DNA of 64,000 nt from Gammaproteobacteria bacterium (GCA_038922795.1 JBCKWI010000003.1:5118-69117), one strand, 5' to 3'; positions 275 to 61,950 are shown, numbered from the stretch's first letter. Numbers and translations are program-made. Notes: generated by a model not told the origin, from the sequence alone.

Positions 275-309
275 CACCCTCTCCCTCCGGGAGAGGGTTG
301 GGGTGAGGG
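275..309. repeat. REP-like nested palindrome (family A: CCCTCTCCC-TCCGGGAG-AGGG plus GGGGTGAGGG) in the icd-aceK intergenic region
   Basis: The inverted repeat ccctctccc/gggagaggg is seen directly. The same unit recurs at about 10407, 47041 and 61793. Confidence 0.8.
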
Positions 310-2329: not shown

Positions 2330-4135
2330 ATGTTTGATTACCGGATAATGAAAATGGCAAAAAAAGAAAAAACATCAAAACAGAACCTCACGGTCAGTCT
2401 GGACAAGAATGATCTGGACGAAATATTCGAAGAAGTCGAAAAAAGTCAACTACGAAAAAAGAATAAAAAGAAAACCGAAAAACAGGAACCGTTGGAGAAA
2501 CAGCTTTGGAAAGCGGCGGGTAAACTGCGCAAGAACATTGACGCCGCCGAATACAAGCATATTGTGCTTGGCCTGATCTTTCTGAAATACATCTCCGACG
2601 CCTTCGAAGAATTATTCAACAAGCTGCAAGCGGGTAAAGGTGACTATGCCGGGGCCGACCCGGAAGACAAGGATGAGTACAAGGCCGAGAATGTCTTCTT
2701 CGTACCACCCACAGCGCGTTGGTCATTTCTGTTATCCAAAGCCAAACAACCTGAGATTGGCAAGTTTGTCGATGAGGCGATGGATGCCATTGAAAAGGAA
2801 AACGCCTCATTAAAAGGAGTGCTGCCAAAAGTCTTTGCACGGCAAAACCTCGATCCCGCCAGTTTGGGTGGATTAATCGATCTGGTCGGTAATATTGCGT
2901 TAGGTGATGCCAAGGCCAGAAGTGCCGATGTACTCGGCCATGTGTTTGAATATTTCCTCGGGGAATTTGCACTGGCTGAAGGCAAACAAGGCGGACAATT
3001 CTATACACCGCGCAGTATTGTTGAATTACTGGTGGAAATGCTGGGACCCTACAAAGGCCGGGTGTTCGATCCCTGTTGCGGCTCCGGCGGTATGTTCGTG
3101 CAATCGGAAAAATTCGTGGCCGAACATCAGGGCAAGATCAATGACATCTCCATCTACGGACAGGAAAGCAACCAGACCACATGGCGGCTGTGCAAAATGA
3201 ACCTTGCCATTCGTGGTCTTGACAGTTCACAGGTGAAATGGAACAACGAGGGATCATTTTTAAATGATGGTCACAAGGATTTGAAAGCCGATTTTGTCAT
3301 TGCCAATCCACCGTTTAATGACAGCGACTGGAGCGGTGAACTCCTGCGCACCGATGGCCGCTGGCAATATGGTGCGCCACCCACGGGCAATGCCAACTTT
3401 GCCTGGTTGCAACATTTTGTTTATCACCTCTCCCCCACCGGCCAGGCCGGTGTAGTGCTGGCAAAAGGGGCTTTAACCTCTAAAACCTCCGGCGAAGGTG
3501 AAATCAGAAGGCGTTTAATCGAAGAAGGCAACCTGATTGATTGCATTGTTAATCTCCCCGCCAAACTGTTTTTAAATACCCAGATCCCGGCAGCGTTGTG
3601 GTTCATGAGCCGTAATCGCAAAGGCACCTCTCCCGCCGGAAGAGGCGGGGGTGAGGGATTCCGTAACCGCAGCAATGAAATCCTCTTTATCGATGCCCGC
3701 AATATGGGTCATTTGATCAATCGCCGTACCCGTGAGCTTTCCCATGAAGATACCAAACACATTGCCAACACCTACCATACATGGAGAAACAACCACTCTC
3801 CCTCCAAAACGCATCGTCATTCCGGCCAAGCGAAGCGTGAGCCGGAATCCAGTAAAAATACCAACACACATCGTCATTCCGCACTTGATGCGGAATCCAG
3901 TCAATTAATCTATCAAGACATTCCCGGCTTCTGCGCTTCAGTCTCCCTGGATCGTGTAAAAGAACTGGACTACGTATTAACTCCAGGCCGTTATGTGGGG
4001 TTACCGGATAATGACGATGATTTTAATTTCAAGGAACGATTCACATCACTCAAAGCCGAGTTTGAACAGCAGTTAAAAGATGAAGCGAAACTCAATAAAA
4101 TTATTGCTGAGAATCTAGCGAGGGTGAAGGTGTGA
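2330..4135 (+). CDS. hsdM: type I restriction-modification system, DNA methyltransferase subunit M
   Basis: It has the HsdM N-terminal domain ([32 protein letters not shown]), the SAM motif ([11 protein letters not shown]) and the catalytic NPPF ([11 protein letters not shown]). The real start is probably ATG 2348 or 2354 (MKMAKK/MAKK). It carries an in-frame 123-nt palindromic repeat insertion near the 3' end. Confidence 0.92.
3813..3901. repeat. Two small palindromic units (catcgtcattccggc...gccggaatccagt and catcgtcattccgca...tgcggaatccagt) inserted in frame inside hsdM
   Basis: Direct reading. Tandem units have ATTCCGG..CCGGAAT / ATTCCGCA..TGCGGAAT stems. Other HsdM proteins run ...YHTWR...YxDIPGFC... 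without the about 41 aa [41 protein letters not shown]. Confidence 0.7.
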
Positions 4136-10404: not shown

Positions 10405-10560
10405 AAACCCTCTCCCCTCGGGAGAGGGCACGATTACAGGATGTAATCGGTAGAGTCGAGCCGGGAGCGGAGACCGAGGGTGAGGGAAAAGCGATCAGGA
10501 TCATGCTGAGGTACAGCTTCCCTCATCCCCTGCCCTTCTCCCGGAGGGAGAAGGGGGTGT
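10405..10560. repeat. Composite REP cluster (family A units interleaved with a family B unit gattacaggatgtaatcggtagagtcgagccgggagcggagaccgag)
   Basis: Direct reading. ccctctcccctcgggagaggg, gggtgaggg and ccctcatcccc...ctcccggagggagaaggggg are present. The predicted ORF 10320-10640 lies wholly in repeats and is spurious. Confidence 0.8.
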
Positions 10561-18435: not shown

Positions 18436-18569
18436 AATGTTTTGCCTGTCGTTCCAACGATAAAGAAGATATTAAAAGGAATACCAGAGATCAGATAACC
18501 AGATGATTACTTGAGATTAATACTAAGGAACCTCTGATTAAGTGTCTTTGCCGTCATGCTGGTGAAAAC

Positions 18570-18898
18570 GACCTACACGAAGTAGGAAATGCCGCAAGAC
18601 GCCTATAGGGATATAGGCGGTAGAGCAACGCACGACTCCAGGGATGGATGAGGTAGAATCGCGTCGGGAACAGCGATCGAGGAGCCAAAGCCGAGGACAC
18701 GACGACATGGATGTAGGAGGTACGATTACAGGGAAGTAATCGGTAGAGTCGAGCCGGGAGCGGAGACCGAGAGTAACGTCGGGAACAGTTACCGAGGAAG
18801 TCCATAGCGGCCAGCATCCAGTAAATAATTGTTTTGACTGGGTTCTGGCCTGCGCCAGAATGACAGCTTGTAGCCACTGGTGACTTGATCAGAACATC
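18570..18898. repeat. Mosaic cluster of short palindromic units (family B) ending in the family C terminal module agaatgacag...cttgatcagaac, lying inside the trpB-trpA intercistronic space
   Basis: Direct reading. The same units (gtagagtcgagccgggagcggagaccgag; catggatgtaggaggtacgattacagggaagtaatcgg) are seen at 10430, 28130, 55610 and 56830. Confidence 0.8.
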
Positions 18899-18909
18899 CC
18901 TAAGTTTTC

Positions 18910-19107
18910 TCATGATGGCGGTATTTGCCTGAGTTTCAGTTCAAGCAATTCAATCGCCATATCGGGTATTTCTTCATGATTTTTTGATTCATTCGATGTC
19001 AGCCAGTGGTCTACCATTTCGCGTTTGACACTGACCAGTTCGGCGACCTGTCTGCGATCCAGTTTATAGTCTGCTATCAGTTCTATTAATCTTTCCCGGT
19101 TATTCAT
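18910..19107 (-). CDS. small putative HTH protein (65 aa) between trpB and trpA
   Basis: The ORF begins 7 nt after the trpB stop on the same strand. A helix-turn-helix-like segment (RQVAELVSVKREMVDHWL) is present. It could be a repeat-associated artefact. Confidence 0.35.
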   Translation of the reverse strand: MNNRERLIELIADYKLDRRQVAELVSVKREMVDHWLTSNESKNHEEIPDMAIELLELKLRQIPPS

Positions 19108-19116
19108 GTTAATACC

Positions 19117-21944: not shown

Positions 21945-24900
21945 TTAAATCTGACCCAGTAACTCCTGGGCTTGCTGACGTTGTTCATCATTTCCAGCAG
22001 CTATGATTTCATTCAGTATGGTCTTTGCATTATCTGAATCTCCAAGTTCAACATAGGCCTTGGCCAGATCCAGCTGACTGGCAATTTCATCTTCTTCGGT
22101 TTGCTGGGCAGTACCGGCGGAACGTGGCACCATAATAGTATGATCAGCGTCATCATCCTGTTCGTCTATCACGAATTCAAATTCATTCCCCGATGGTGCT
22201 TCGTCCTCTGTCTCTATATCTGAATCCAGCGCAGCACGCTTTGGTATCTGCATGGTACCTTCCATATCGATTTCAGGCAGTACATCAGGCGCGTCATCAG
22301 TATCAAGATTAAAATCAATCCCGAGGTTCGAGCTGTCCTGGCCTGATGTAATATCAAAACCTGCAAAGGTCATATCTTGCTCATTCACATCATTCTCACT
22401 GGCATCATCTGGTGACAATTCAAAATCAAGCAGATTATCATCTGCATCTCTTACTACGCCGGCTTTGGTGTTATCGAGCAACTCGTCCGCATCCATACTG
22501 GCACTCGTTGCGGCGGTAACATCAAGAAGATCCGCATCACTATCCGGCTCAAAGTTCCTGGTCTTTGTAACATCAAGCAAATCATCGCCGGACTGCTCTT
22601 TTGTACCAGTTTCAATCTCCAGAGATTCATCTTCATCATAAAGACTGATGCCTGAAGTGACATCAAGCAGATCAGCAGTCCCGGTTTTTTCATCATCAGT
22701 GACATTAAATGACGTATCCAGGACATCGGGGGCAGATTCATGTTTCTTTTCGTCTTGCTCCAGATCAAACGAGAAATCCAGTGCGTTGTCATCAGTCACC
22801 GCGCCCTCATCTTCTGCCTGCGATATATCCAGTGAAATGTCCAGCGCGTCCGCGGAGGGTTCTTCCGGCTTTTTGTCTTCTTCCAGGTCAAACGAGAAAT
22901 CCAGTGCGTTGTCATCTGCCACTGCGCCCACATCTTCTGCCTGCGATATATCCAGTGAGATGTCCAGTGCGTCCACAGAGGATTTTTCCGGCTTCTCGTC
23001 TTCCTCCAGGTCAAATGAAAAGTCGAGCGAATTATCATCCGCGGATTTGGATTCTGCCAGGGCGACTTCGTCCCCGGCACTTTCATCATCAGTCGCGGCA
23101 GTCACATCAAGTGCTGCTTCATCGTCCATATCAATCGCAGCAGTGACATCCAGTATGTCTCCGTCTCCACTGTCATCAACAGCGGCCATATCAAGAACAT
23201 CGGCACCACTGGAGGTTGTATCCAGATCGAAATCCAGACCAGCAGTGGTTGCACTTTCATCACCGGCAATATTGACTATGCCTCCACCGCTGGCGGCGGC
23301 ACCGGTATCCTGTTCATCACCTTCAGATTCCGCAAATAATGCGCGGTTTGGAGAAATTTCCCGCCACATGGCAACAGCCATCTTCCAGTAGTCACCCTTC
23401 CCGCGAACCTTATCGTGCAGAACCCGCGCAGCCTTTTCGTATCCTTTTTTGTTGTTGGCTGCATAATATACCTCGAGTAACTTGGTATGGTTTTCAAGAT
23501 TATCAGGATCTTTTGCGATTATTTTCTTGACCAGTTCTTCGGCCTGATCATATTGCTCATAGGCCAGGAAATAATTGATCTCAGTAAATGGATCTTCTTC
23601 CTCTTCAGGCGCAGGCGCCTGTTTTACTACCTGCGGTGATATAACCTTCGTGGCGTCCTGTTTTTCAAATTCCAGCTCACCTGTTTCATCTTCTGAACCG
23701 GGCAGAATTGTTATGGCCTCGGAATCCACCAGCGCCGTGCTGAGATCGGTTGCATCTTCCAAATGAGAATCCCGTGGCTGATCCGCAAAATCGTCGAAAT
23801 TGGGGAAGGCGTTTTGCGGGATCTCTATTGCAGACTCACTCTGACGGCGTTTGACAAAAGCAACCCCCAGGCCAACCAGCAGCAATCCTCCCAGAACTGC
23901 GCCCACATAGGTGAGATTGCTCCTGATAATGTCAATTATTCCCGTCAGGGCAGAAGGGATAAATGAAGTAGCGGCGGTATCTACTGTTGTATCAACTGCC
24001 TCTCCTGCAACTGTTTCATCCTCTTCCTGTACCGGTGACTCCTCCGCAGTTGTTACTTCAGCTTCCGCTACTTGCACAGGTTCTTCCGGTTCTGGCGCTT
24101 CAGCCACAGCTGCCTGTTCCTCTGCAATAGCAGCTTTCGCTGCTTCTTCAGCCGCTATCTGTTGTTGCAGGGCTGCCAGTTCACTTTCCTTGAGCACAAT
24201 CAGACGCTTCAGGTCATCAACGATCGCCTCTGTTTCGGAAAGTTTGTCCTTAAGTTCGGCGTTTTCCAGTGTTAATGCTTCAAGCGATTCACTAACCAGC
24301 GCCAGTTCGTTTGCCAGTTGTTCACTACTGGGCTCAGTGGCTCCTGCTATACCCCCACCTTCTTCAGCCGGTGCTACCAGGCGTAGTTCCGGTTCTCCTT
24401 CCGGAGGAACAACAACCGGGGCAATTTCAGGAGTGACTACGATTTCCGGAGTTGCCACCTCCTCGCTGATCACAGTTTCTGGTCTTGGTGTGACAGCTGT
24501 AGCCAGGGCACCACGTGCCTCTTCCCATAATCTGTTTTGCAGTAGGGCCTGTGCAAATGCCTCATCCCTGGTGAGTGAACGTAGCTCGGATGGGTCCGGT
24601 AAATTCAGAATTTGTCCACGTTTTAGTCCGTTGATATTGCCATTAATAAAGGCCTCGGGGTTTGCCCGCAGCAGGGCAATCATTATCTGCTGCACACTCA
24701 CAGAGCTGTCTGGACGCATAGCGCTTGCGATTGACCAAAGGGTATCTCCTGTCACTGTGGGACCATAATCCCCACCATCGTAAGCGATAGGTCTTGATAT
24801 TGGCGGCGCGGCAGATGGAACACTTCTGGCTGGTTTATATTCAGGAGCATAAACAACCTGATTGTCTTTTATGTCCCGGACAATTGTGCCTGTTGTGCTT

Positions 24901-25337
24901 TCTACCGGGGCAGACTGTGTCAGTCTTTTCTGTTTTTCGGGGCTGGCATAGATGGGTGGGTCCAGTAACACGGTATATTCCCGGTACAGGCGGCCTTTGG
25001 ACCAGCTCACTTCCAGCAGAAAATTCAGGAAGGGTTCACGAATGGGCTCATTACTGTAAATACGGATATAATCTGAGCCTGAATCCGTCTCTTTTAGAAC
25101 AAAATTCAGATCTCTGAGGATATTTAATCTGGGGATACCGGCACGGCTGAATGCAGCCTCATCAGCCAGTCTTACATTCAGGCTGTCAAGTTCTTCTATA
25201 GTTGCTGAAAGCAGTTCAATCCGGGCTTCAAAGGGTTCATTAAGTGCGGAATCAAGATCCAGCTTACCCAGTCCCAAAGCGTGTACAAGCGCAGGAGCAA
25301 ATGTAATCAGTAAAAATAACTGCAGTCTCAATCTCAT
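21945..25337 (-). CDS. fimV: FimV-like peptidoglycan-binding pilus/motility assembly protein
   Basis: Signal peptide, FimV N-terminal domain, LysM (TVTGDTLWSIAS...GQILNLP), a TM segment, a very acidic tandem-repeat region, TPR, and the FimV C-terminal motif (LDLAKAYVELGDSDNAKTILNEI). Confidence 0.9.
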   Translation of the reverse strand: MRLRLQLFLLITFAPALVHALGLGKLDLDSALNEPFEARIELLSATIEELDSLNVRLADEAAFSRAGIPRLNILRDLNFVLKETDSGSDYIRIYSNEPIREPFLNFLLEVSWSKGRLYREYTVLLDPPIYASPEKQKRLTQSAPVESTTGTIVRDIKDNQVVYAPEYKPARSVPSAAPPISRPIAYDGGDYGPTVTGDTLWSIASAMRPDSSVSVQQIMIALLRANPEAFINGNINGLKRGQILNLPDPSELRSLTRDEAFAQALLQNRLWEEARGALATAVTPRPETVISEEVATPEIVVTPEIAPVVVPPEGEPELRLVAPAEEGGGIAGATEPSSEQLANELALVSESLEALTLENAELKDKLSETEAIVDDLKRLIVLKESELAALQQQIAAEEAAKAAIAEEQAAVAEAPEPEEPVQVAEAEVTTAEESPVQEEDETVAGEAVDTTVDTAATSFIPSALTGIIDIIRSNLTYVGAVLGGLLLVGLGVAFVKRRQSESAIEIPQNAFPNFDDFADQPRDSHLEDATDLSTALVDSEAITILPGSEDETGELEFEKQDATKVISPQVVKQAPAPEEEEDPFTEINYFLAYEQYDQAEELVKKIIAKDPDNLENHTKLLEVYYAANNKKGYEKAARVLHDKVRGKGDYWKMAVAMWREISPNRALFAESEGDEQDTGAAASGGGIVNIAGDESATTAGLDFDLDTTSSGADVLDMAAVDDSGDGDILDVTAAIDMDDEAALDVTAATDDESAGDEVALAESKSADDNSLDFSFDLEEDEKPEKSSVDALDISLDISQAEDVGAVADDNALDFSFDLEEDKKPEEPSADALDISLDISQAEDEGAVTDDNALDFSFDLEQDEKKHESAPDVLDTSFNVTDDEKTGTADLLDVTSGISLYDEDESLEIETGTKEQSGDDLLDVTKTRNFEPDSDADLLDVTAATSASMDADELLDNTKAGVVRDADDNLLDFELSPDDASENDVNEQDMTFAGFDITSGQDSSNLGIDFNLDTDDAPDVLPEIDMEGTMQIPKRAALDSDIETEDEAPSGNEFEFVIDEQDDDADHTIMVPRSAGTAQQTEEDEIASQLDLAKAYVELGDSDNAKTILNEIIAAGNDEQRQQAQELLGQI
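22748..23125. repeat. 126-bp tandem repeat (about 3 copies) encoding 42-aa acidic repeats (DNALDFSFDLEEDEKPE...ADALDISLDISQAED) inside fimV
   Basis: Direct reading. The first two units are near-identical and the third is diverged. This explains the long antisense ORFs predicted here. Confidence 0.85.
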
Positions 25338-28099: not shown

Positions 28100-28129
28100 C
28101 GGGTATTTCCACTTCCAGAAAAACAATTA

Positions 28130-28690
28130 ATCTACCGCCGCTCGACAACTTGTTCCAGACGTTGTCCCGGTCTCTGTTCCAGACGCGACTCTCGACCGCT
28201 GTTCCCGACGCGGTTCTACCTCCCCCGTCCATGGGGTCGTACCGATTCCATCCATGGAATCGTACCACCTCGACAATTGCTCCAGGCATTGTTCTACCTC
28301 CCACGTCCATGTGGTCGTACTTCCCTGTAGGCGTCCCGCGCAGTCGCTATCAGCATCCCGCTTCATGCGACACTAATACATCCCTGTATGTCGTCCTGCA
28401 CCCGCGGAATACGACCGCCATGGATGGCGGAAGTGTCGAAAATGTAAGGAACAATTTTTCGACCCGTACCTCCTGTACATAAATGTCAGGAACAATTTTT
28501 CGACCATTACGTCCATGTAAATCGCCGCTCCTCGGCTTTGGCTTCCTGCGTCGCCCTACCTCCTGCATCCTTGCAGTCGTGTGCAGTCGCTGTCAGCATC
28601 CTGCTTTACGCGACACTAATACATCCCTGTATGTCGTCCTGCACCTGCGGCATACCGTACTTCCTGTACATAAAAAGGCTGCACAGCATA
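28130..28690. repeat. About 560-bp mosaic array of short palindromic units (family B), including a pair of 68-bp direct repeats (28338-28405 and 28583-28650)
   Basis: Direct reading. Units such as gtcgtaccgattccatccatggaatcgtacc, tccctgtaggcgtccc, tacctcctgcatccttgcagtcgtg and aggaacaatttttcgacc x2 are present. There are no uniform spacers. Confidence 0.85.
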
Positions 28691-28692
28691 CC

Positions 28693-43072: not shown

Positions 43073-43789
43073 ATGGACATCGAATTACCCATACCCATAC
43101 TGCCCCAACCAGATGATACAACCTGTGGGCCGACCTGTTTGCATGCCGTATACAATTACTATAATGACAATATCCCGCTGGCGGAGGTAATTGCAGATAC
43201 ACAGATGCTGGATGCCGGTGGCACCCTGGATGTTTTTCTGGCCTGCTCGGCATTACGGCGCGGTTACCAGGCGACTATTTATACCTACAGCCTGCAGATG
43301 TTCGATCCAAGCTGGTTCAGTTCACCTGACATTAATATTGCCGAACGCCTGCAACGTCAGGCAGAGTTAAAACATGATAAAAAACTGCAACATGCCACAC
43401 GGGGTTATCTGGAGTTTCTGGAACTTGGCGGCAAAATACGATTCACAGATCTGAATACCCGCCTGTTGCGCAGTATTATCCGTAGAAAAATGCCGATTTT
43501 GACGGGCCTGAGTTCAACCTACCTTTATCGCAGCATACGTGAATTTGGGCCAACGGACGATCCGGATGATATTCGCGGACTGCCGGGCGGGCACTTTGTG
43601 ATCCTGAGTGGTTACCACAGACAGGACCGTACCATATTGATCGCTGATCCCTATCTGAAAAACCCGGTTGCACCGGGTCAATTGTACCCGGTGAACATCG
43701 ATCGTGTTATCTGTGCCATTTTACTGGGTGTATTGACTTATGATGCCAACCTGTTGGTGATCCATCCTCGACGAGAAAAAATTATATGA
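43073..43789 (+). CDS. papain-like cysteine peptidase of the C39 type (standalone)
   Basis: QPDDTTCGPTCLHAV matches the C39 Q/Cys motif (QxxxxDCGxACL) and the downstream His motif is GGHFVILSGY. The track start is TTG 43067. The ATG at 43073 (MDIELPIP...) is more likely. Confidence 0.65.
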   Translation: MDIELPIPILPQPDDTTCGPTCLHAVYNYYNDNIPLAEVIADTQMLDAGGTLDVFLACSALRRGYQATIYTYSLQMFDPSWFSSPDINIAERLQRQAELKHDKKLQHATRGYLEFLELGGKIRFTDLNTRLLRSIIRRKMPILTGLSSTYLYRSIREFGPTDDPDDIRGLPGGHFVILSGYHRQDRTILIADPYLKNPVAPGQLYPVNIDRVICAILLGVLTYDANLLVIHPRREKII

Positions 43790-45258
43790 CAATCCTGTTG
43801 GTCGTAACCAACCCGAATAACTGGCCACTGCATATTCCGGGGGTAGTCGTGACCTCGGCCCGTTCCTACCTGACCGATCCTGCATTCAGCGAGGACCGCT
43901 CAACCAAGGTATTCAATCTGTGCCGTTCCTATGCTTATCAAAGCACTGGTTATTATGTTTCACTACTGGCCGCCGCACGGGGACATAAACCGTTGCCGGA
44001 CATCAACACCATTCAGGACCTGAAATCACAGTACGTAATCCGCGCATTGTCAGAAGAAATAGAAGAACAGATCCAGACCGCATTCAAGCGGTTGCAATCC
44101 AAAAAATTTACTTTGAGTATCTATTTTGGCAGGAATACCGCCAAACAATACAACAGTATAAGTTTACGTTTATTTGATATCTTCAAAGCCCCGTTATTGC
44201 GCGCGCAATTCGTCAGGGGCAAAATCTGGCAACTGGATTCCATTCGCACGATAACCGTGAGCGATATTCCGGAAAACCACCGTAAATTTGTAATTGAATG
44301 TGCAACGGATTATTTTTCGGGCAGAAAGCGGCGTGTCAGAAAACGTACTACACCAAGATTCGATTTGGCGCTTCTGTATAACCCCGATGAAAAAGAGCCC
44401 CCCTCAAACAGCAAGGCAATAAAAAAATTCCAGAAGGCAGCCGAAGCGGTAGGTCTTGATCTGGAATTAATAACACGAAATGACATGCATCGTCTTGCTG
44501 AATTCGATGCACTGTTTATTCGCGAGACTACAGCGGTCAACCACCATACTTTTCGAATCGCGCAACGCGCAATTGCAGAAGGACTGGTTGTAATGGATGA
44601 CCCGGACTCCATACTGAAATGTTCCAACAAGGTATATCTGGCTGAATTATTTACACGGCATTCCATACCTATTCCTAAAACCCTGGTTATTCATCGAAAC
44701 AATATTGATGAAATTCAAAAAATACTGGGTCTGCCATGCATACTCAAACAACCGGACAGCGCTTTCTCAATGGGGGTCACCAAGGTTGAAACTGTGGATG
44801 AACTAAATCAGCAAGTCACGCGCCTGTTATCCAAATCTGATCTAATCGTTGCACAGGAATTTCTGCCTACAAGTTTCGACTGGCGGATTGGTATTTGTGA
44901 CAGGCGTCCGTTATATGTTTGCCGTTACTATATGGCACGGCGACACTGGCAAGTTTATAAACGTGATGAATCCGGTAATGCTCATAGTGAAGGTGAATCC
45001 AACACGATATCAGTCGGCGAAGCACCGGATGAGGTCATTAAAACAGCACTCAAGGCAGCAAATCTGATTGGCGATAGTCTTTATGGCGTGGATTTGAAAC
45101 AGATCGGTAACAAGTGTTATATCATTGAGGTCAACGATAACCCAAATATTTACACAGGGACTGAGGATGCTGTTTTGAAAGATGCCCTATACCGGGAGAT
45201 TATGGGAATCTTTTTAAAACGCATCGAAGCACGTAAACGCGGCCCATCACCGGTATGA
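43786..45258 (+). CDS. RimK-like ATP-grasp ligase with an N-terminal extra domain of about 220 aa
   Basis: C-terminal ATP-grasp fold motifs are present (CILKQPDSAFSMGV; LIVAQEFLPTSFDWRIG; YGVDLKQ...YIIEVNDNPNI). Start overlaps the upstream stop (ATGA). Confidence 0.85.
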   Translation: MTILLVVTNPNNWPLHIPGVVVTSARSYLTDPAFSEDRSTKVFNLCRSYAYQSTGYYVSLLAAARGHKPLPDINTIQDLKSQYVIRALSEEIEEQIQTAFKRLQSKKFTLSIYFGRNTAKQYNSISLRLFDIFKAPLLRAQFVRGKIWQLDSIRTITVSDIPENHRKFVIECATDYFSGRKRRVRKRTTPRFDLALLYNPDEKEPPSNSKAIKKFQKAAEAVGLDLELITRNDMHRLAEFDALFIRETTAVNHHTFRIAQRAIAEGLVVMDDPDSILKCSNKVYLAELFTRHSIPIPKTLVIHRNNIDEIQKILGLPCILKQPDSAFSMGVTKVETVDELNQQVTRLLSKSDLIVAQEFLPTSFDWRIGICDRRPLYVCRYYMARRHWQVYKRDESGNAHSEGESNTISVGEAPDEVIKTALKAANLIGDSLYGVDLKQIGNKCYIIEVNDNPNIYTGTEDAVLKDALYREIMGIFLKRIEARKRGPSPV

Positions 45259-46508
45259 CAGAGACCATTGCCACGCTCCCGCTGTTTGCGGGTTATGGTA
45301 TTGAACTCGAATATATTATTGTTGATCGCGATCATCACAATGTTCTGCCTGTTACCGATCAGTTACTCAAAGCCGCCACAGGTGACTATGTCAGTGATTA
45401 TGAGGAAGGATCCATTGCCTGGTCGAATGAACTGGTACTGCATGTCATTGAATTAAAGACCAACGGGCCGGTCAGCATGCTTACCGGTTTACCGGATCAT
45501 TTTTTATCCAATATCCACCGTATCAACAAAATCCTTGAAAACATGAACGGCAGGCTGATGCCAGCAGCTATGCATCCCTGGATGGATCCTTTTAAAGAAA
45601 CCCGATTGTGGCCGCATGAGTCTTCCGAGATCTATGAAAGCTACAATCGTATCTTCAATTGCCAGGGACATGGCTGGTCGAACCTGCAAAGCATGCATAT
45701 CAATCTGCCGTTTGCAGATGATCATGAGTTTGCGCTTTTACATGCTGCCATCCGTATATTGTTACCGATTATGCCGGCACTCGCCGCGAGTTCACCGATC
45801 ATGGATGGTCAATATACCGGCCTGCTGGATACGCGGCTGGAAGTCTACCGGCGCAATGCCGAAAAAATCCCCAGCATCACCGGCCTGGTGATTCCGGAAC
45901 CGGTGCATCATTATCTCGATTATCAAAACATGATCCTGCAGCCCATGTATGCTGCCATTGCCCCGCATGATCCGGAGGGCATTTTGCAATATGAATGGTT
46001 GAATTCCAGGGGAGCCATTGCCCGCTTCGACCGTAACGCCATTGAGATACGCGTGCTGGATACACAGGAGACGCCGCAGGCCGATATCGCCATTGCCGCC
46101 ATGATCATATCCATCCTCAAGAAGCTGGCGGCTGCGATATGGTCTGATGTTACAGAACAAAACCAGCTCGACACAGAAACTCTGGCAGAGCTCTTGATGT
46201 TGACCATCAAAGAAGGTGAACTGGCTACAATTAAAAATAAGTCCTATCTTGAATTATTCGGTTTTCCGGATCGCAAAGGCCTGGTACAGGAACTCTGGCA
46301 ACACTTGCTTGAATCAATATCAGCAGATGATACGGATTTAATCCCGGAACTCAGAAAAACAATAGAATACATCATTCATTGCGGGCCACTGGCACGCCGC
46401 ATCAAGCTGTCGATCGGCAAGGAGTGCAAACGTTCTCACATGCAAGAGTCTTATCGCCAGCTCTGCGATTGTTTAAATAACGGACAGCTCTTTGAAGGCA
46501 TCGACTAG
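45255..46508 (+). CDS. GCS2/YbdK-type carboxylate-amine ligase (glutamate-cysteine-ligase family 2)
   Basis: The N-terminal GYGIELEYIIVD pattern is characteristic of GCS2 (GxExEhxxVD). About 417 aa. Start overlaps the upstream stop (ATGA). Confidence 0.7.
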   Translation: MTETIATLPLFAGYGIELEYIIVDRDHHNVLPVTDQLLKAATGDYVSDYEEGSIAWSNELVLHVIELKTNGPVSMLTGLPDHFLSNIHRINKILENMNGRLMPAAMHPWMDPFKETRLWPHESSEIYESYNRIFNCQGHGWSNLQSMHINLPFADDHEFALLHAAIRILLPIMPALAASSPIMDGQYTGLLDTRLEVYRRNAEKIPSITGLVIPEPVHHYLDYQNMILQPMYAAIAPHDPEGILQYEWLNSRGAIARFDRNAIEIRVLDTQETPQADIAIAAMIISILKKLAAAIWSDVTEQNQLDTETLAELLMLTIKEGELATIKNKSYLELFGFPDRKGLVQELWQHLLESISADDTDLIPELRKTIEYIIHCGPLARRIKLSIGKECKRSHMQESYRQLCDCLNNGQLFEGID

Positions 46509-47367
46509 AAAAATAATAATAACCTGTGAACATGGCGGTCATCATGTGCCATTGGAATATCGCCACCTGTTTAACAAACAGCAGTCCGTCCTGGGTTCTC
46601 ACCGCGCCTGGGATGCAGGGGCACTGCTACTTGCCAGAGAGCTTGCCAAAAAATTAAATGCGCCGCTCATAGTTTCTGAAATAACCCGGTTACTGATCGA
46701 TCTCAACCGTTCCCTGCACCATCGTGTTCTCTTTTCAGAATTCACCAGAGATTGTGATAAAGAAACCAGAAATCAAATTCTTCAGGAGTATTATTTTCCA
46801 TACCGGAACCGTGTCGAGAATGAAATTACAAAAGCATCGAAAGGGGGGAAACCAGTAGTCCATTTTTCTATCCATTCGTTCACGCCCAGACTTGGTAGTG
46901 AAATACGTAAAGCCGATATCGGATTGCTGTATGACCCGACCAGGAAAGGCGAACGTGATCTCTGCATCCAGCTACAGGCTATTCTGCAGGGAATTAACCA
47001 TCTCCGTAAGGAACATAGTTCCCTCACCCGTGCTTCGCACGGCCTCTCCCGGAGGGAGAGGCTAATACACCCTCTCCCTCCGGGAGACGACTGCATGGAT
47101 GCAGGAGGTAGAATAACGCTTGGAGCAGTTATCGAGGGTTGGGGTGAGGGTGCCGTGGATGGTAATGCAAACCAGCCTATCGTCCGGCGTAATTATCCCT
47201 ATCGCGGTAATGCAGATGGTTTTACAACTTATTTAAGAAAAAAATATCCGGGATCAAAATACATTGGTATAGAGATCGAAATCAACCAGAAGCAGGTCAA
47301 TCATGCTGATCACTGGAAAAGTTTACGCGAGCATATAATCAATTCTGTTATCAGACTAACAATCTGA
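46492..47367 (+). CDS. N-formylglutamate-amidohydrolase-family (FGase-like) hydrolase carrying an in-frame REP insertion
   Basis: ITCEHGGHHVP, SIHSFTP and ...RRNYPYRGN...YIGIEIEINQ fit the FGase family. A 120-nt REP element (47041-47160) is translated in frame as GLSRRERLIHPLPPGDDCMDAGGRITLGAVIEGWGEGAVDG. Confidence 0.7.
   Translation: MKASTRKIIITCEHGGHHVPLEYRHLFNKQQSVLGSHRAWDAGALLLARELAKKLNAPLIVSEITRLLIDLNRSLHHRVLFSEFTRDCDKETRNQILQEYYFPYRNRVENEITKASKGGKPVVHFSIHSFTPRLGSEIRKADIGLLYDPTRKGERDLCIQLQAILQGINHLRKEHSSLTRASHGLSRRERLIHPLPPGDDCMDAGGRITLGAVIEGWGEGAVDGNANQPIVRRNYPYRGNADGFTTYLRKKYPGSKYIGIEIEINQKQVNHADHWKSLREHIINSVIRLTI
47041..47160. repeat. REP family-A element (ggcctctcccggagggagaggc / ccctctccctccgggag ... 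ggttggggtgaggg) located inside a coding sequence
   Basis: Direct reading. Same family as 275-309, 10405-10560 and 61793-61912. Its length of 120 nt preserves the reading frame. Confidence 0.8.
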
Positions 47368-47473
47368 AAATATTCTTATGGAGCGATTAACCCGGCCAGA
47401 AGCTGCCTGCGTTGCTACCCGATATCTATGCCTCTCAGGTTTTGGAGAGCTGGGTACACATACAACATAAACC

Positions 47474-47815
47474 ATGCCTGCAATTCATGATCTTTGTGCG
47501 CTGAATGATATTCCGGACCAGAAGGCAAAAGGATTTACACTGGAGACTGAAGGTAGCAAGCTTGAATTTTTCATCGTGCGCAAGGGTGATCAGGTCTATG
47601 GTTACATCAACCGCTGCCCGCATACCGGCGTGAACCTCGACTGGCAGCCGGACCAGTTCCTGGATTTGACCGGTTACCAGATACAATGCTCCATGCATGG
47701 CGCAATATTCAGGATCAGGGATGGTTTTTGTGTTTATGGCCCCTGCCAGGGCCGGCATCTGACTCCAGTCAATCTGTTACTGGATAACCACCGGATACAA
47801 CTTGTTATGGAATAA
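47474..47815 (+). CDS. Rieske [2Fe-2S] domain protein (small ferredoxin-like)
   Basis: CPHTGVNL...(17 aa)...CSMHGAIF matches CxH...CxxH. 113 aa. Confidence 0.85.
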   Translation: MPAIHDLCALNDIPDQKAKGFTLETEGSKLEFFIVRKGDQVYGYINRCPHTGVNLDWQPDQFLDLTGYQIQCSMHGAIFRIRDGFCVYGPCQGRHLTPVNLLLDNHRIQLVME

Positions 47816-52092: not shown

Positions 52093-52489
52093 GCACCCGG
52101 CATGATGCGTGACCCGCTACTGTGGTCTTCAAGTTTGTATATTTAATGTATACAACCACACAATAATCATTAATGTTTTTTAAAATTTTTAAACTGGTCT
52201 ATATTAACCAAAAAAGTGGTTGTAACTGCTTATAAACAACCAAGACCTGGTCTAGTTTTATTTCAAATCTAAAAAGCACGTCTTAATCAATTAACCGATG
52301 GCAATAATAATCCATCTTTTACACATGACTTGAGTCAAAAAATCACTCTGCATACTGAATTATTTAAAATTAGTTTGATCTAGATCAAATAATTCCCGAT
52401 CTCTGATTTGTCTACCTGTCACATGGCATAATAGTTGCGGCCAAATGCTTTGAATCTATGAGTTAAACATCTAAGGAAGCTCTGAATAA

Positions 52490-52660
52490 GGTGTCATTTC
52501 GGGCAAAGCGAGAAATCTGTAGTTAAAAATGTCAAACAAAATCAAATAACCGCGAGATTTCTCGACCACTGTTCCAGACGTGGTTCTACCGCCTGCTTCC
52601 ATGCAGGCGTCCCTACGGTCGAAATGACAATAACAACTTAATCAGAGGTTCTCTGAATAA
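52490..52660. repeat. Composite palindromic repeat cluster (family C gtcatttcg-gcaaagcgagaaatctg / cgcgagatttctcgacc plus a family B unit plus the terminal module gaaatgacaa...cttaatcagag)
   Basis: Direct reading. Related copies at 54917-55020 and 60583-60648. Confidence 0.8.
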
Positions 52661-52697
52661 AACCGGAAATATCACTTAAATCAGCAGGGGGAAAGTA

Positions 52698-55609: not shown

Positions 55610-55750
55610 AACCCACTGCGCCTTCCCCCTGGCAGGGGGAACGACTCCATGGATGGAGTCGGTAGAGCAACGCAGGACGCCTACAGGGAGCGTGATGAAC
55701 TTGAACTCTACCTGAGGTTCCGGGCCTGTGCAGGAGATAAAGTCTCACGC
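55610..55750. repeat. family B palindromic repeat cluster flanking the IS remnant (left side)
   Basis: Units ccccctggcagggggaacgactccatggatggagtcggtagagcaacgcaggacgcctacagggagcg are read directly. Confidence 0.75.
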
Positions 55751-55810
55751 TTCAATATTTCTCAACAGACTGAATGATATCCAAGTCCTTCCCCAGGGGA
55801 AAGAGGCTGA

Positions 55811-56825
55811 ATGAGCAAGGGGGGTCACGAGATGATGACAATAATTGGTATTGATGTAGGCAAGGCGAAACTGGACTGCCTGTGGTTAAAAGACCCGGCC
55901 ACTGGCAAAGTGAAGACCAAGGTCTTTGCCAACACGCCGGACGGCCGCCTGGCGTTAATGGGGTGGACTGAACAACAGACACCAGTAGCACTGAATGCGG
56001 TCCATTTTATGATGGGGGCGACCGGGGTCTATCATGAGGCCTTGGCCTATACGCTGTACCGGGCGGGGGCGAAGGTGTCCGTGGTGGATCCGGCACAGGG
56101 GCGGGATGATGCCAAGGGCCTGGGGTCACGCACCAGGACCGACAAGAAGGACAGCTGGGTACTGGCCCGCTTGGGTGCGACACAAGGGACCCGGTTATGG
56201 CAGCCTGAACCTGACGAGGTGCGTAAGCTTGCGCCTCCGCGCCCGCATTGAGGCGGTAGAACAGGCTATTCGGCGCGAGATGAATCGTTTGGAGAAAGCG
56301 GCGATCGCACCGGTGTCCGAAGAGATATTAACCTCGATTCATACGGTTCTGGAACAACTTGAAAAAGAGAAAAAACGGCTGGAAGGGTTAATCAACCGGC
56401 ACATTGATCAACACCCCGGCCTGAAACGTGATCAGCAATGACTGGAGGGCATCCCCGGGGCCGGGCCGGTGATTGCCCGCGACCTGATGGCCGTGATCCG
56501 CAGCCGGTCATTGACTTCGGCGTCGCAGTGTGCGGCCACCTTGGGACGGGTCCCGATCCAGCATGAATCCGGTTCTAGTGTGCGCGGCAGACCGCCTATG
56601 TCCAAAGCCGGGAGTGCGACGATACGGGCCAAATTATAGATGGCGGCAGTCGTGTCCATTCAGCACAACCCGGATATTAAACGGCCCTATCAACGCTTGC
56701 TGAAAAAAGGAAAAGTTAAAATGAGTGCACTGGGTGCAGCCATGCGCAAGCGGGTGCATATTTGTTTTGGTGTATTAAAACACCAGACACCCTGTCAAGC
56801 ACAAACCCTGTCAATGGATTTGTGA
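55811..56825 (+). pseudogene. IS110-family transposase, disrupted by at least 3 frameshifts
   Basis: The N-terminal DEDD domain is MMTIIGIDVGKAKLD...GATGVYHEALAYTLYRAGAKVSVVDPAQ. The continuation lies in other frames: 56034-56441 (...LEKEKKRLEGLINRHIDQHPGLK), 56440-56640 (LEGIPGAGPVIARDLMAVI...) and 56640-56825 (...YQRLLKKGKVKMSALGAAMRKRVHICFGVLKHQTP). Confidence 0.8.
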
Positions 56826-56829
56826 TAGA

Positions 56830-57200
56830 TGGAGGAAGATGGTATCTCCTGCATCCTTGTAGTCGTGTCCTCGGCTTTGGCCTCCTCGATCGCTGTTCGA
56901 AAACCTGTTCCTGACGTTTTCTCGGTCTCTGTTCCAGACTCGACTCTACCGATTCCTTCCATGGAATCGTACCGCCTACATTCCCTGTAGGCGTCCCGAC
57001 GCGATTCTACCTCCTCCATCCCTGGAGTCGTGCGTTGCTCTCGGTCTCCGCTCCCGGCTCGACTCTACCGATTACATCCTTGTAATCGTACCGCCTATGT
57101 CCCTATAGGCGTCTCGCGACTTTTCCCACTTCCTGTGGGTCGCCTACGCCAGAATGACAGCATGTAGAAACTTGTAACTTAATCAGAACATCTTTAATTA
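56830..57200. repeat. family B palindromic repeat cluster with the terminal module agaatgacagcatgtagaaacttgtaacttaatcagaac (right side of the IS remnant)
   Basis: Direct reading. It contains ctcggtctccgctcccggctcgactctaccgatta, the reverse complement of the unit at 10450 and 18750. Confidence 0.8.
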
Positions 57201-57280
57201 GTACCACCTTTCCATATATAATTTCTTATATATTCTATCAATCATCTCTATCACCTATCTGTAGAGTTAAGCTACATGTC

Positions 57281-57538
57281 ATGAAACGGCAACGCGCAAC
57301 AAAAACTCCAATCATCCGGAAATCTACAGGTAATGTTTTCGAAGATATAGGTTTCGCCAAACCAGAAGCGGGACGTCTCGCCATGCTTTCCACACTAGCG
57401 ATCGAAGTCGAAAAGTACATCAAAGACCATAATCTTACGCAGGCAGAAGCGGCTGCACGATTTGGCGTTACCCAACCACGCATCAGCAATCTTTTAAACG
57501 GCAAGTTCCATTTGTTCAGCATTGATATGCTGATATAA
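57281..57538 (+). CDS. XRE-family HTH antitoxin (HigA-like), apparently orphan
   Basis: SGNVFEDIGF...LTQAEAAARFGVTQPRISNLLNGKFHLFSIDML is the typical HigA/XRE antidote pattern. No RelE/HigB-like ORF is present upstream, where the repeat cluster lies instead. Confidence 0.7.
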   Translation: MKRQRATKTPIIRKSTGNVFEDIGFAKPEAGRLAMLSTLAIEVEKYIKDHNLTQAEAAARFGVTQPRISNLLNGKFHLFSIDMLI

Positions 57539-57632
57539 ATGTTGCTGCGCGTGGGTATCCAGGTAAAGATAGGTGTCAAAAAAGCGGCGTGATTTATCCC
57601 TAACGATATTAATTTGCTGAGATAACTCTCCT

Positions 57633-61792: not shown

Positions 61793-61950
61793 CTCCCCCT
61801 TCCCCCTCCGGGAGAAGGGATGGGGATGAGGGAAGGTTTTGATCCATTCACTGCCATTTCACAAAAATCATTCCCTCACCCGTACCCTCTCCCGGAGGGA
61901 GAGGGTTGATATCCTGTGTCCACATCCGAACCTCTCCGGTGGGAGTGGGT
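61793..61950. repeat. REP family-A cluster (two nested palindromes plus a partial unit) between metA and the P-loop gene
   Basis: ccccctccgggagaagggatggggatgaggg ... ccctcacccgtaccctctcccggagggagaggg is read directly. Confidence 0.8.

What the first reader, a model, noticed from the sequence alone, without database searches (positions are those of the whole stretch)
47041..47160. REP element translated in frame inside the FGase-like gene
A 120-nt family-A REP sits within the CDS between conserved FGase segments and is read through as a 40-aa insert. Together with the hsdM case, this is the second in-frame intragenic palindromic insertion in 64 kb. This points to a genome where REP/MITE insertions into genes are frequent and frame-preserving ones persist.
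Basis: partly seen in the sequence, partly recalled or inferred. Interest (0 to 1): 0.55.

Follow-up and report, generated by a model that had tools for sequence, protein, structure and literature searches.

The report
Nested palindromic repeats translated inside enzyme gene
A 171-base block made of two kinds of small palindromic repeat DNA sits in frame inside an otherwise normal amidohydrolase gene and is read through as a floppy 57-residue loop; this kind of event is already known, but one repeat type turns out to flank a nuclease gene, which may explain how it spreads.

Summary
Against 19 aligned orthologues and three orthologous DNA loci, the FGase-family gene (46492-47367) carries a lineage-specific in-frame insertion of 171 nt / 57 aa at 46990-47160, not 120 nt / 40 aa.

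The insert is a composite:
- a head-to-head pair of BoxC/PIT/"TM" intrastrand-triplex repeats (47021-47062 minus strand, 47070-47150 plus strand);
- a 46-nt GTAG-tagged REP doublet with a GA duplication, which splits the plus-strand unit (47088-47135);
- 31 nt and 10 nt of flank that match nothing.

The AlphaFold2 model keeps a confident FGase fold, with the insert as a disordered loop. I read it as tolerated selfish DNA.

The hsdM case is also real, but its TM unit is shared with orthologues from other genera, so it was inherited with the gene.

In-frame intragenic REPs are already published. TM units had been reported only between genes in E. coli, yet I found them read through in real genes of several phyla.

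Side lead: TM units bracket DUF559 nuclease genes. Density is 5.5/kb within 150 nt against 0.12/kb further away, in a fixed orientation, and the E. coli gene ycjD also has a TM unit nearby. This points to a REP/RAYT-like partnership.

The parts
46492..47367 (+). FGase-family (PF05013) coding sequence, 291 aa, TTG start overlapping the stop of the upstream GCS2-type ligase gene
   Evidence: ORF list. Pfam PF05013 E=3.8e-23. Orthologues use the same TTG-AAG-GCA start. AF2 model mean pLDDT 82.8; Foldseek best hit 2odf at E=3e-15, and 2q7s. Gene order conserved in L003.
46990..47160 (+). Whole lineage-specific in-frame insertion, 171 nt = 57 codons (aa 167-223)
   Evidence: Gap in all 19 aligned orthologues and in DNA of L001, L002 and L003. 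GC is 57% against 43% for the rest of the gene. Only the gene's frame is stop-free among the three forward frames. RNA MFE -83.5 kcal/mol, z = -5.6. Residues 182-224 have pLDDT below 50.
46990..47020 (+). Left flank of the insert, 31 nt, origin unknown (encodes GINHLRKEHS)
   Evidence: No significant match in the window or in any fetched locus. Modelled as a weak helix extension.
47021..47062 (-). BoxC/TM unit, 42-nt variant. On the minus strand it reads GCCTCTCCC-TCC-GGGAGAGGC-CGTGCGAAGCAC-GGGTGAGGG, with the second loop expanded to a small GC hairpin
   Evidence: Regex census. The same long-loop variant, with different complementary stems, occurs in loci titled Geomonas, Bradyrhizobium, Paludisphaera, Acidobacteria and others.
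47070..47150 (+). BoxC/TM unit CCCTCTCCC-TCC-GGGAGA[...]GGG-TTG-GGGTGAGGG, interrupted inside the first G-stem
   Evidence: After removal of 47088-47135 it is identical over 36 nt to the intergenic copy at 274-309. The two BLAST pieces, 274-294 and 293-309, overlap by 2 nt. It fits the consensus of Holder 2015.
47088..47135 (+). Nested GTAG-tagged REP doublet: hairpin CTGCAT/ATGCAG, then GGTAGA, then hairpin ATAAC../..GTTAT, then CGA. This is 46 nt plus a duplicated GA, 48 nt = 16 codons
   Evidence: Related copies lie at 10430-10476, 18.6-18.76 kb, 28.23-28.62 kb, 52.55-52.65 kb and 56.8-57.11 kb, with compensating stem changes. The GA duplication follows from the overlapping matches. A homologous 48-nt module splits the same G-stem, two bases upstream, in the TM unit of hsdM in L207.
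47151..47160 (+). Right flank of the insert, 10 nt, origin unknown
277..309 (+). Canonical 33-nt BoxC/TM unit, intergenic, upstream of aceK
3626..3657 (+). TM unit read in frame inside hsdM (peptide [11 protein letters not shown])
   Evidence: Gap against PDB 3khk. The same unit is present in orthologues L206, L207, L208, P0126 and P0135 and absent in P0121, P0123 and P0164.
3794..3897 (+). Second repeat-bearing site in hsdM: a remnant of a TM C-stem (CCACTCTCCCTCC) followed by two CGTC-tagged REPs (3815-3849, 3872-3897), all in frame
   Evidence: At this same site, orthologues L206, L207, P0127 and P0205 carry a whole TM-DUF559-TM block in frame.
10408..10554 (.). Intergenic tail-to-tail TM pair: 10408-10486 (+), which carries a GTAG-REP module in its second loop, and 10520-10554 (-)
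61797..61905 (.). Intergenic tail-to-tail TM pair: 61797-61832 (+) and 61873-61905 (-)

Best explanation
Window 46990-47160 is selfish repeat DNA that landed in a surface loop of an FGase-family amidohydrolase and is tolerated there.

Shown:
- The gene has a lineage-specific 171-nt in-frame insertion.
- Its core is a head-to-head pair of BoxC/PIT/TM units. Each unit is a 9-nt C-rich stem, a loop, a complementary G-rich stem, a second loop, and a second G-rich block able to form a triplex or quadruplex.
- The plus-strand unit was later split by a 46-nt GTAG-type REP doublet that duplicated a GA dinucleotide.
- The composite is stop-free only in the gene's frame.
- It encodes a Pro/Gly/Arg-rich 57-aa segment that a confident FGase-fold model leaves as a disordered loop between a helix and the next strand.
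- Every residue invariant in the family is intact on both sides.

Inferred:
- Two successive events, of 123 nt and then 48 nt, each preserved the frame. Frame-breaking insertions in this operon gene would have been purged.
- TM units are predisposed to survive in genes because the canonical unit is 33 nt (11 codons) and open in 5 of 6 frames.
- The enzyme still works, and the insert has no function of its own.

More speculative: TM units are spread by, or together with, a DUF559 (Vsr-like PD-(D/E)XK) nuclease gene that they bracket in many bacteria, much as REPs relate to RAYT transposases.
For: - Insertion absent in 19 of 19 aligned orthologues. Among the 120 best of 6470 homologues, none apart from the window's own product exceeds 268 aa.
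- DNA-level gap at 46990-47160 against L001, L002 and L003, with conserved ATP-grasp/GCS2/FGase/Rieske gene order.
- The units fit the published consensus CCCTCNCCC-N3-6-GGGNGAGGG-N3-GGGNGAGGG.
- The plus-strand unit without the module is 36/36 identical to the copy at 274-309, with a 2-nt overlap of the two matches.
- The module belongs to a GTAG-hairpin family that forms intergenic arrays in the window.
- GC 57% against 43%; one open forward frame of three; 33-nt unit open in 5 of 6 frames.
- AF2 mean pLDDT 82.8, with 193 residues at 90 or above and 182-224 below 50. Fold matches 2odf and 2q7s.
- The invariant residues listed include the window protein on both sides of the insert.
- TM read-through occurs in Pfam-verified genes elsewhere: a PrmC-like protein, an Eco57I/MmeI methylase, MetRS, a YgiQ-type radical SAM protein (two loci) and a MeaB-mutase fusion.
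- DUF559 link: 63 of 80 metagenome DUF559 loci have a TM unit within 250 nt and 44 of 80 have one on both sides. Density is 5.51/kb near against 0.12/kb far. The nearest upstream unit is '+' in 41 of 46 loci and the nearest downstream unit is '-' in 49 of 53.
- A whole TM-DUF559-TM block is inserted in frame in HsdM and MetRS orthologues.
- E. coli ycjD has a TM-like hairpin at its stop codon and TM copy number 9 of Holder 2015 about 170 nt downstream.
Against: - No true empty site is available. The closest orthologue is 82% identical, so exact ends and any target duplication of the TM pair cannot be read.
- 31 + 10 nt of the insert match no repeat.
- There is no expression or activity data, so a recently inactivated gene is not excluded. 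About one random insertion in three of this composite would stay open.
- No DUF559 gene and no RAYT were found in the window.
- The FGase pair is head-to-head, whereas DUF559 sits between tail-to-tail units. It is therefore not a simple deletion derivative of one TM-DUF559-TM element.
- The DUF559 sample was seeded with TM-flanked genes, so the association may hold for one subfamily only.
- The E. coli comparison of ycjD presence with TM number is weak.
Confidence: 0.8

Rival explanations
1. The gene is a young pseudogene. The repeat insertion destroyed the enzyme, and the open frame is luck or recency rather than selection.
For: About one in three random insertions of this composite in this orientation would stay open. 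The Pfam match stops at residue 148 of the protein. No expression data exist.
Against: Both inferred steps (123 nt, then 48 nt) preserved the frame. All family-invariant residues are intact on both sides. The C-terminal part is as conserved as the N-terminal part, with no frameshift. The model keeps the full fold with the insert as an external loop. The overlapping start/stop with the upstream gene and the operon order are intact.
Confidence: 0.12
2. The insert is functional. Either it is an mRNA or DNA structural switch (hairpin, triplex or G-quadruplex) that tunes translation or recombination of this operon, or it is a newly recruited protein loop.
For: Very stable predicted structure (-83.5 kcal/mol, z = -5.6). 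The G-rich strand forms triplex or quadruplex in vitro (PMC4666352, PMC5100583). TM loci are unusually variable among E. coli strains (PMC4666352).
Against: The same units occur at unrelated intergenic and genic sites. The insert is absent from every orthologue. It is predicted to be disordered. In E. coli no promoter, terminator or in-vivo triplex activity was found (PMC4666352).
Confidence: 0.05
3. Assembly artefact. Repeat-induced misassembly of a metagenome-assembled contig put repeat sequence into the gene.
For: The source appears to be an uncultured gammaproteobacterium. The only identical protein on record comes from a single 73-kb NCBI contig.
Against: The gene continues in frame and in register on both sides. 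The insert has unique flanks and a nested structure with a clean 2-nt duplication. Misassembly usually joins different loci rather than inserting 171 nt and returning.
Confidence: 0.03

Closest known systems
BoxC / PIT elements / TM(ECO) intrastrand-triplex motif (Bachellier 1990s; Hoyne and Maher 2000; Holder et al. 2015, PMC4666352), the same as the HPG1/HPG2 G-quadruplex-hairpin motif (Kaplan et al. 2016, PMC5100583)
   Same: Same sequence architecture and near-identical consensus (CCCTCTCCC-N3-GGGAGAGGG-N3-GGGTGAGGG). Many copies per genome, often in inverted pairs, and wide phylogenetic spread.
   Different: In E. coli these units are reported as always intergenic, with no associated mobility gene. 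Here the units lie inside coding sequences and are translated. One has a 12-nt hairpin as its second loop and one is split by another repeat. I also find them bracketing DUF559 genes.
GTAG- and CGTC-tagged REPs, including intragenic ones (Di Nocera, De Gregorio and Rocco 2013, PMC3733652); the REP/RAYT (REPIN) system
   Same: The nested 48-nt module has a GTAG tag next to a short stem-loop with a 3-nt tail, and its family forms clusters. The hsdM site-2 units are CGTC + stem + CCA tail. That paper already reports in-frame intragenic REPs, mostly dimers encoding 20-30 aa, in genes for known proteins.
   Different: No RAYT gene is visible in the window. Here the REP sits inside another repeat (a TM unit) with a GA duplication. 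An equivalent module splits the same G-stem, two bases upstream, in a TM unit of another organism's hsdM (L207).
Rickettsia palindromic elements (RPE; Ogata et al. 2000, from my own knowledge; cited in PMC3733652)
   Same: Small palindromic repeats inserted in frame into many unrelated protein-coding genes and translated as extra surface segments without destroying the host protein.
   Different: Unrelated sequence family and host lineage. RPEs are 100-150 nt single elements, whereas this insert is a nested composite of two families.
MITEs (miniature inverted-repeat transposable elements)
   Same: Short and non-coding on their own, with terminal inverted repeats (CCCTCACCC ... GGGTGAGGG at 47021-29 and 47142-50), many copies, and a candidate autonomous partner (TM-DUF559-TM).
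   Different: No transposase of a known family is involved, and no target-site duplication could be established for the TM pair. DUF559 is a PD-(D/E)XK nuclease with no known transposition activity.

Membership tests
BoxC/PIT/TM(ECO) triplex motif | 9-nt C-rich stem CCCTCNCCC, loop of 3-6 nt, complementary G-stem GGGNGAGGG | tested here: met
   47070-47078, then TCC, then GGGAGA...GGG. On the minus strand of 47021-47062: GCCTCTCCC, TCC, GGGAGAGGC, with one mismatch per stem as the published search allows.
BoxC/PIT/TM(ECO) triplex motif | Second loop of 3 nt followed by a second G-block GGGNGAGGG | tested here: inconclusive
   The plus-strand unit has TTG + GGGTGAGGG and meets the feature once the nested module is removed. 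The minus-strand unit has a 12-nt hairpin loop (CGTGCGAAGCAC) before GGGTGAGGG. This variant is outside the published N3 but recurs in many phyla.
BoxC/PIT/TM(ECO) triplex motif | Multi-copy within a genome, often as inverted pairs | tested here: met
   Eight units at five places in 64 kb, three of them pairs. 13 matches against 0.03 expected.
BoxC/PIT/TM(ECO) triplex motif | Intergenic location (described as 'always' for E. coli) | tested here: not met
   Units at 47021-47150 and 3626-3657 lie inside ORFs and are read through. This is a descriptive feature of E. coli copies, not a structural definition.
BoxC/PIT/TM(ECO) triplex motif | Formation of an intrastrand triplex or G-quadruplex by the single strand | not testable with these tools
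   ViennaRNA does not model triplexes. Only the hairpin potential was computed. In-vitro evidence exists for the E. coli sequences (PMC4666352).
GTAG-tagged REP (REP/RAYT system) | GTAG tetranucleotide at one end of a short imperfect palindrome (stem 5-13 bp, loop 2-20 nt), with a short tail | tested here: met
   GGTAGA + ATAACGC-TTGGA-GCAGTTAT + CGA at 47108-47135. Related copies show compensating stem changes: ACAAT/ATTGT, ACCAC/GTGGT, ATCGC/GCGAT.
GTAG-tagged REP (REP/RAYT system) | Many copies, frequently clustered or dimeric, mostly intergenic | tested here: met
   Arrays at 18.6-18.76, 28.23-28.62, 52.55-52.65 and 56.8-57.11 kb.
GTAG-tagged REP (REP/RAYT system) | A RAYT (IS200/IS605-like Y1 transposase) gene in the genome, flanked by the REPs | tested here: inconclusive
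   None among the 20 window ORFs scanned. The rest of the genome is not available.
MITE | Terminal inverted repeats plus a target-site duplication | tested here: inconclusive
   The composite has 9-nt terminal inverted repeats (pair I4). No clear duplication flanks the 171 nt. GGAATTAACCA and GGTAATGCAAACCA are only loosely alike, and no close empty site exists. The nested module does show a 2-nt GA duplication.
FGase family (PF05013), for the host gene | Significant profile match and the FGase fold with family-invariant residues | tested here: met
   Pfam 83.2 bits against a cut-off of 28.9. Foldseek 2odf E=3e-15 and 2q7s E=5e-7. Invariant columns are kept. Substrate not tested. No NCBIfam family matched at E <= 1e-5.
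REP/RAYT-like partnership between TM units and a DUF559 nuclease (proposed here, not an established family) | The nuclease gene is bracketed by inverted copies of the dispersed repeat | tested here: met
   63 of 80 loci have a unit within 250 nt and 44 of 80 have one on both sides. 47-fold local enrichment with fixed orientation. Also L014, L016, L039 and E. coli ycjD.
REP/RAYT-like partnership between TM units and a DUF559 nuclease (proposed here, not an established family) | The nuclease recognises, cuts or mobilises the repeat | not testable with these tools
   No biochemical data were found in the searched literature.

The most novel reading that the evidence does not exclude
BoxC/PIT/TM repeats, known for about 30 years with no function or mobilising enzyme, would be the dispersed non-autonomous partners of a DUF559 (Vsr-like PD-(D/E)XK) nuclease gene that they bracket in inverted orientation across many phyla. 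That would be a second REP/RAYT-type system built on a different nuclease. Its ends encode stop-poor Pro/Gly-rich linkers. Both solo units and the whole TM-DUF559-TM block can therefore sit in frame inside essential genes such as MetRS, HsdM and this FGase gene, and persist there.
Probability: 0.4. Interest if true: 0.8.

Novelty: new variant of a known kind. Interest (0 to 1): 0.55.

Why it matters
Taken alone, the FGase insert is one more example of small palindromic repeats surviving in frame inside genes, which is already documented for RPEs and for GTAG/CGTC REPs. Three points add value.

1. The main repeat is BoxC/TM, which has been described as strictly intergenic. It is shown here to be translated inside real genes in several phyla. 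This matters for gene annotation and for any reading of these motifs as regulatory DNA structures.

2. The nesting, with a GTAG-REP splitting the first G-stem of a TM unit in two unrelated genes of two organisms (insertion points two bases apart), shows that one repeat family targets another.

3. The strong, oriented association of TM units with DUF559 genes, including E. coli ycjD, gives a concrete candidate for how BoxC/TM repeats arise and move. This can be tested in E. coli and has been an open question since the 1990s.

Tried and rejected
- **Rfam.** A scan of the whole window at gathering thresholds found nothing.
- **Source contig.** Look-ups for the source contig and organism name failed. 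TrpA homologues gave only 'uncultured Gammaproteobacteria'.
- **Origin of the flanks.** I searched for the 31-nt and 10-nt flanks in the window, in 200 fetched loci, and as peptide against DUF559 C-terminal tails. There were no significant matches. The idea that the left flank is a remnant of a DUF559 3' tail, joined through the shared ATTCTGCAG (ILQ) motif, stays speculative.
- **Tandem or circle-junction model.** I tested whether head-to-head pairs are junctions of tandem elements by looking for duplicated gene tails or leaders outside the outer units. This was positive in L130, L164 and L183, and E. coli ycjD shows a similar duplicated gene tail. It was negative in most loci, so the model is not general.
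- **DUF559 or RAYT in the window.** None found.
- **E. coli ycjD against TM number.** ycjD is present in 3378 of 5426 genomes. In a spread sample of 30 records, those without the ycjD locus showed fewer matching places (1-3 against 2-6). The measure is crude and confounded by phylogroup.
- **Long-ORF screen.** The stop-to-stop screen for intragenic TM units gave 70 candidates. Most come from GC-rich DNA and are probably spurious. Only six genes were verified with Pfam.
- **Literature.** Searches for a DUF559-BoxC link found nothing.
- **Rejected reading.** The idea that the 57 aa are an ancestral family segment is rejected, because they are absent from every orthologue.

Full report
**1. The observation**

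The ORF 46492-47367 (+, 291 aa, TTG start) is an FGase-family protein. Pfam PF05013 matches at E=3.8e-23, but only over residues 8-148. A search of 5.8 billion proteins gave 6470 homologues. The only identical entry (P0001, 273 aa, a shorter start call) comes from one 73-kb NCBI contig. All other hits among the 120 best are 208-268 aa.

Aligning 19 of them shows one block of 57 residues present only in the window protein. It lies between the conserved LQ(S/A)ILQ helix end and the (V/I)RRNYPYRG strand. DNA alignment with three orthologous loci (L001 and L002 at 82% aa identity, L003 at 77%) puts the gap at 46990-47160, which is 171 nt. L003 has the same ATP-grasp / GCS2 / FGase / Rieske gene order as the window.

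So the insertion is real and in frame. It is 171 nt / 57 aa, not 120 nt / 40 aa.

**2. What the insert is made of**

The motif CCTCTCCC-N3-GGGAGAGG occurs 13 times in the window (both strands counted) against 0.03 expected. Reading the copies gives a unit CCCTCTCCC-TCC-GGGAGAGGG-TTG-GGGTGAGGG.

A literature search on the two G-blocks identified it as the BoxC / PIT / 'TM(ECO)' intrastrand-triplex motif. Its published consensus is CCCTCNCCC-N3-6-GGGNGAGGG-N3-GGGNGAGGG (PMC4666352). It is also described as a G-quadruplex/hairpin motif (PMC5100583). Both papers state that E. coli copies are always intergenic. PMC4666352 adds that no mobile element is associated with them.

The insert's anatomy, with unit boundaries refined:

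| Coordinates | Content |
|---|---|
| 46990-47020 | Unassigned flank, 31 nt |
| 47021-47062 | TM unit on the minus strand; second loop is a 12-nt hairpin (CGTGCGAAGCAC) |
| 47063-47069 | Spacer, 7 nt |
| 47070-47150 | TM unit on the plus strand, interrupted inside its first G-stem by 47088-47135 |
| 47151-47160 | Unassigned flank, 10 nt |

Without the interruption, the plus-strand unit is identical over 36 nt to the intergenic copy at 274-309. The two BLAST pieces (274-294 and 293-309) overlap by two bases. The interrupting element is therefore 46 nt plus a duplicated GA.

That element reads hairpin CTGCAT/ATGCAG, GGTAGA, hairpin ATAAC../..GTTAT, CGA. It belongs to a second family that forms intergenic arrays at 10.43, 18.6-18.76, 28.23-28.62, 52.55-52.65 and 56.8-57.11 kb, with compensating stem changes. 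It fits the GTAG-tagged REPs of Di Nocera et al. 2013 (PMC3733652). No RAYT gene was seen in the window.

Further properties of the composite:
- GC is 57% against 43% for the rest of the gene.
- It is stop-free only in the gene's frame among the three forward frames.
- As RNA it folds at -83.5 kcal/mol, z = -5.6.

**3. State of the host gene**

An AlphaFold2 model built on 77 sequences has mean pLDDT 82.8, with 193 residues at 90 or above. Residues 182-224 are below 50. They form an unstructured excursion between helix 152-165 (with a weak extension at 171-180) and strand 231-233.

Foldseek returns the FGase-family structures 2odf (E=3e-15) and 2q7s. The sequence-only PDB search shows the match to 2odf resuming right after the insert.

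All family-invariant residues are present on both sides. The start still overlaps the upstream gene's stop.

The two inferred events are 123 nt and 48 nt, both multiples of three. I infer a tolerated loop insertion in a gene still under selection. A young pseudogene cannot be excluded without expression data.

**4. The hsdM case**

The HsdM ORF (2330-4135) carries a TM unit at 3626-3657, read as [14 protein letters not shown] chain 3khk has a gap there.

Among close homologues the same unit at the same site is present in proteins from Methylomonas (L208, P0126), Methylotenera (L206) and others. It is absent in P0121, P0123 and P0164. It therefore travels with the gene family and is not evidence of insertion activity in this genome.

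In L207 this unit is split by a homologous 48-nt GTAG module in the same G-stem as in the FGase gene, two bases upstream, and again in frame.

At a second site (after TYHxWRN) the window has a TM C-stem remnant plus two CGTC-tagged REPs with CCA tails (3815-3849, 3872-3897), in frame. At that same site four orthologues carry a complete TM(+)-DUF559-TM(-) block in frame.

**5. Beyond the window**

A 25-base TM pattern has a chance expectation of about 0.02 in 596 Gb (my own estimate). The record titles name Planctomycetes, Acidobacteria, Chloroflexi, Verrucomicrobia, Cyanobacteria, Omnitrophica, a MAG labelled Bifidobacterium and several classes of Proteobacteria, among others.

A variant whose second loop is a 12-16-nt GC hairpin recurs across phyla with different complementary stems. 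Head-to-head and tail-to-tail pairs are both common.

Screening TM units that lie inside long ORFs, followed by Pfam, verified in-frame read-through in six genes:
- a PrmC-like protein (L013);
- an Eco57I/MmeI methylase (L093);
- MetRS (L016);
- a YgiQ-type radical SAM protein (L012 and L072);
- a MeaB-mutase fusion (L009).

In-frame survival thus looks like a family property. A 33-nt unit is 11 codons and is open in 5 of 6 frames.

**6. The DUF559 lead**

In L016 the MetRS insert is TM(+)-DUF559-TM(-). L014 (Acinetobacter) and L039 (Sphingomonadaceae) show the same bracket.

A metagenome scan used a DUF559 alignment whose search patterns lie inside the nuclease core. It returned 80 loci at 43-70% identity. 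The results:
- 63 have a TM unit within 250 nt, and 44 have one on both sides.
- Density is 5.51 per kb within 150 nt against 0.12 per kb beyond 300 nt.
- The nearest upstream unit is '+' in 41 of 46 loci, and the nearest downstream unit is '-' in 49 of 53.

In E. coli K-12 the DUF559 gene ycjD ends in a TM-like hairpin. It is followed by a partial duplicate of its own 3' end and by published TM copy number 9. The ycjD locus is present in 3378 of 5426 complete E. coli genomes.

I found no paper linking DUF559 to BoxC/TM. The association is shown. That the nuclease mobilises the repeats is inference by analogy with REP/RAYT.

**7. Verdict**

The finding is real but ordinary in kind, since in-frame intragenic palindromic repeats are published (PMC3733652; RPEs). 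It is new in detail: BoxC/TM units inside genes, a repeat nested in a repeat, and 171 nt rather than 120. Its genome-specific reading is weakened by the inherited hsdM unit and by the cross-phylum examples. The most novel reading left open is the TM-DUF559 partnership.

Noticed in passing
The record titles span many phyla, from Planctomycetes and Chloroflexi to Enterobacteriaceae and Cyanobacteria. That is far wider than the mainly proteobacterial and cyanobacterial distribution reported in 2015.
   Followed up: partly
Loci L126-L205; L014 956-1270; L016 2176-2505; L039 5173-5466; L125 (E. coli ycjD): DUF559 (Vsr-like nuclease) genes are bracketed by inverted TM units with the G-rich tails facing the gene. 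Local enrichment is 47-fold and the orientation is fixed. E. coli ycjD has a TM-like hairpin at its stop and a full TM unit about 170 nt downstream.
   Followed up: yes
L016 (MetRS); L206 and L207 (HsdM); proteins P0124, P0127, P0137, P0205: A whole TM-DUF559-TM block is inserted in frame inside methionyl-tRNA synthetase and inside HsdM orthologues. The nuclease domain is thus translated as part of the host protein, between Pro/Gly-rich linkers encoded by the TM units.
   Followed up: partly
L013 2749-2780; L093 2291-2322; L012 1766-1799; L072 1161-1193; L009 4454-4604: TM units are read through in frame in Pfam-verified genes of other phyla: a PrmC-like protein, an Eco57I/MmeI methylase, a YgiQ-type radical SAM protein (two loci) and a MeaB-mutase fusion.
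   Followed up: partly
window 3794-3897 (inside hsdM): A remnant of a TM C-stem is followed by two tandem CGTC-tagged REPs (CGTCATTCCG...CGGAATCC + CCA tail). All are in frame, at the site where orthologues carry TM-DUF559-TM.
   Followed up: partly
window 18436-19116, 28127-28692, 52093-52697, 55651-57632: Long intergenic spacers, including the one between trpA and trpB, hold arrays of GTAG-tagged hairpins whose stems differ by compensating changes. No RAYT gene was seen in the window.
   Followed up: partly
L207 1684-1731 and window 47088-47135: Homologous 48-nt GTAG-REP modules split the first G-stem of a TM unit in two different genes of two organisms, at insertion points two bases apart. 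Both are in frame, and both are compatible with a GA duplication. This suggests one repeat family targets the other.
   Followed up: partly
window 47021-47062 and about 20 units in L008, L020, L032, L044, L066, L071, L075, L082, L083, L089, L100: A TM variant has a 12-16-nt GC hairpin with a GAAG-, GCAG- or GGAG-type loop as its second loop. Its stems differ between genomes but stay complementary. This argues for a constraint on single-strand structure.
   Followed up: no
window 22746-23015: A tandem repeat of period 123 nt, 2.2 copies and 88% identity lies inside the 1130-aa ORF 21945-25337.
   Followed up: no
window 43786-47815: There is a conserved four-gene cluster: RimK-like ATP-grasp ligase, YbdK/GCS2-type carboxylate-amine ligase, FGase-family hydrolase and a small Rieske protein. 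The same order occurs in L003/L004. The pathway is unknown.
   Followed up: no
window 46492-46546: The public protein for this gene (P0001, 273 aa) is 18 residues shorter than the ORF and so presumably starts at the GVG/GTG codon 18 codons downstream, cutting into the invariant CEHGG motif. Orthologues support the TTG start at 46492.
   Followed up: partly
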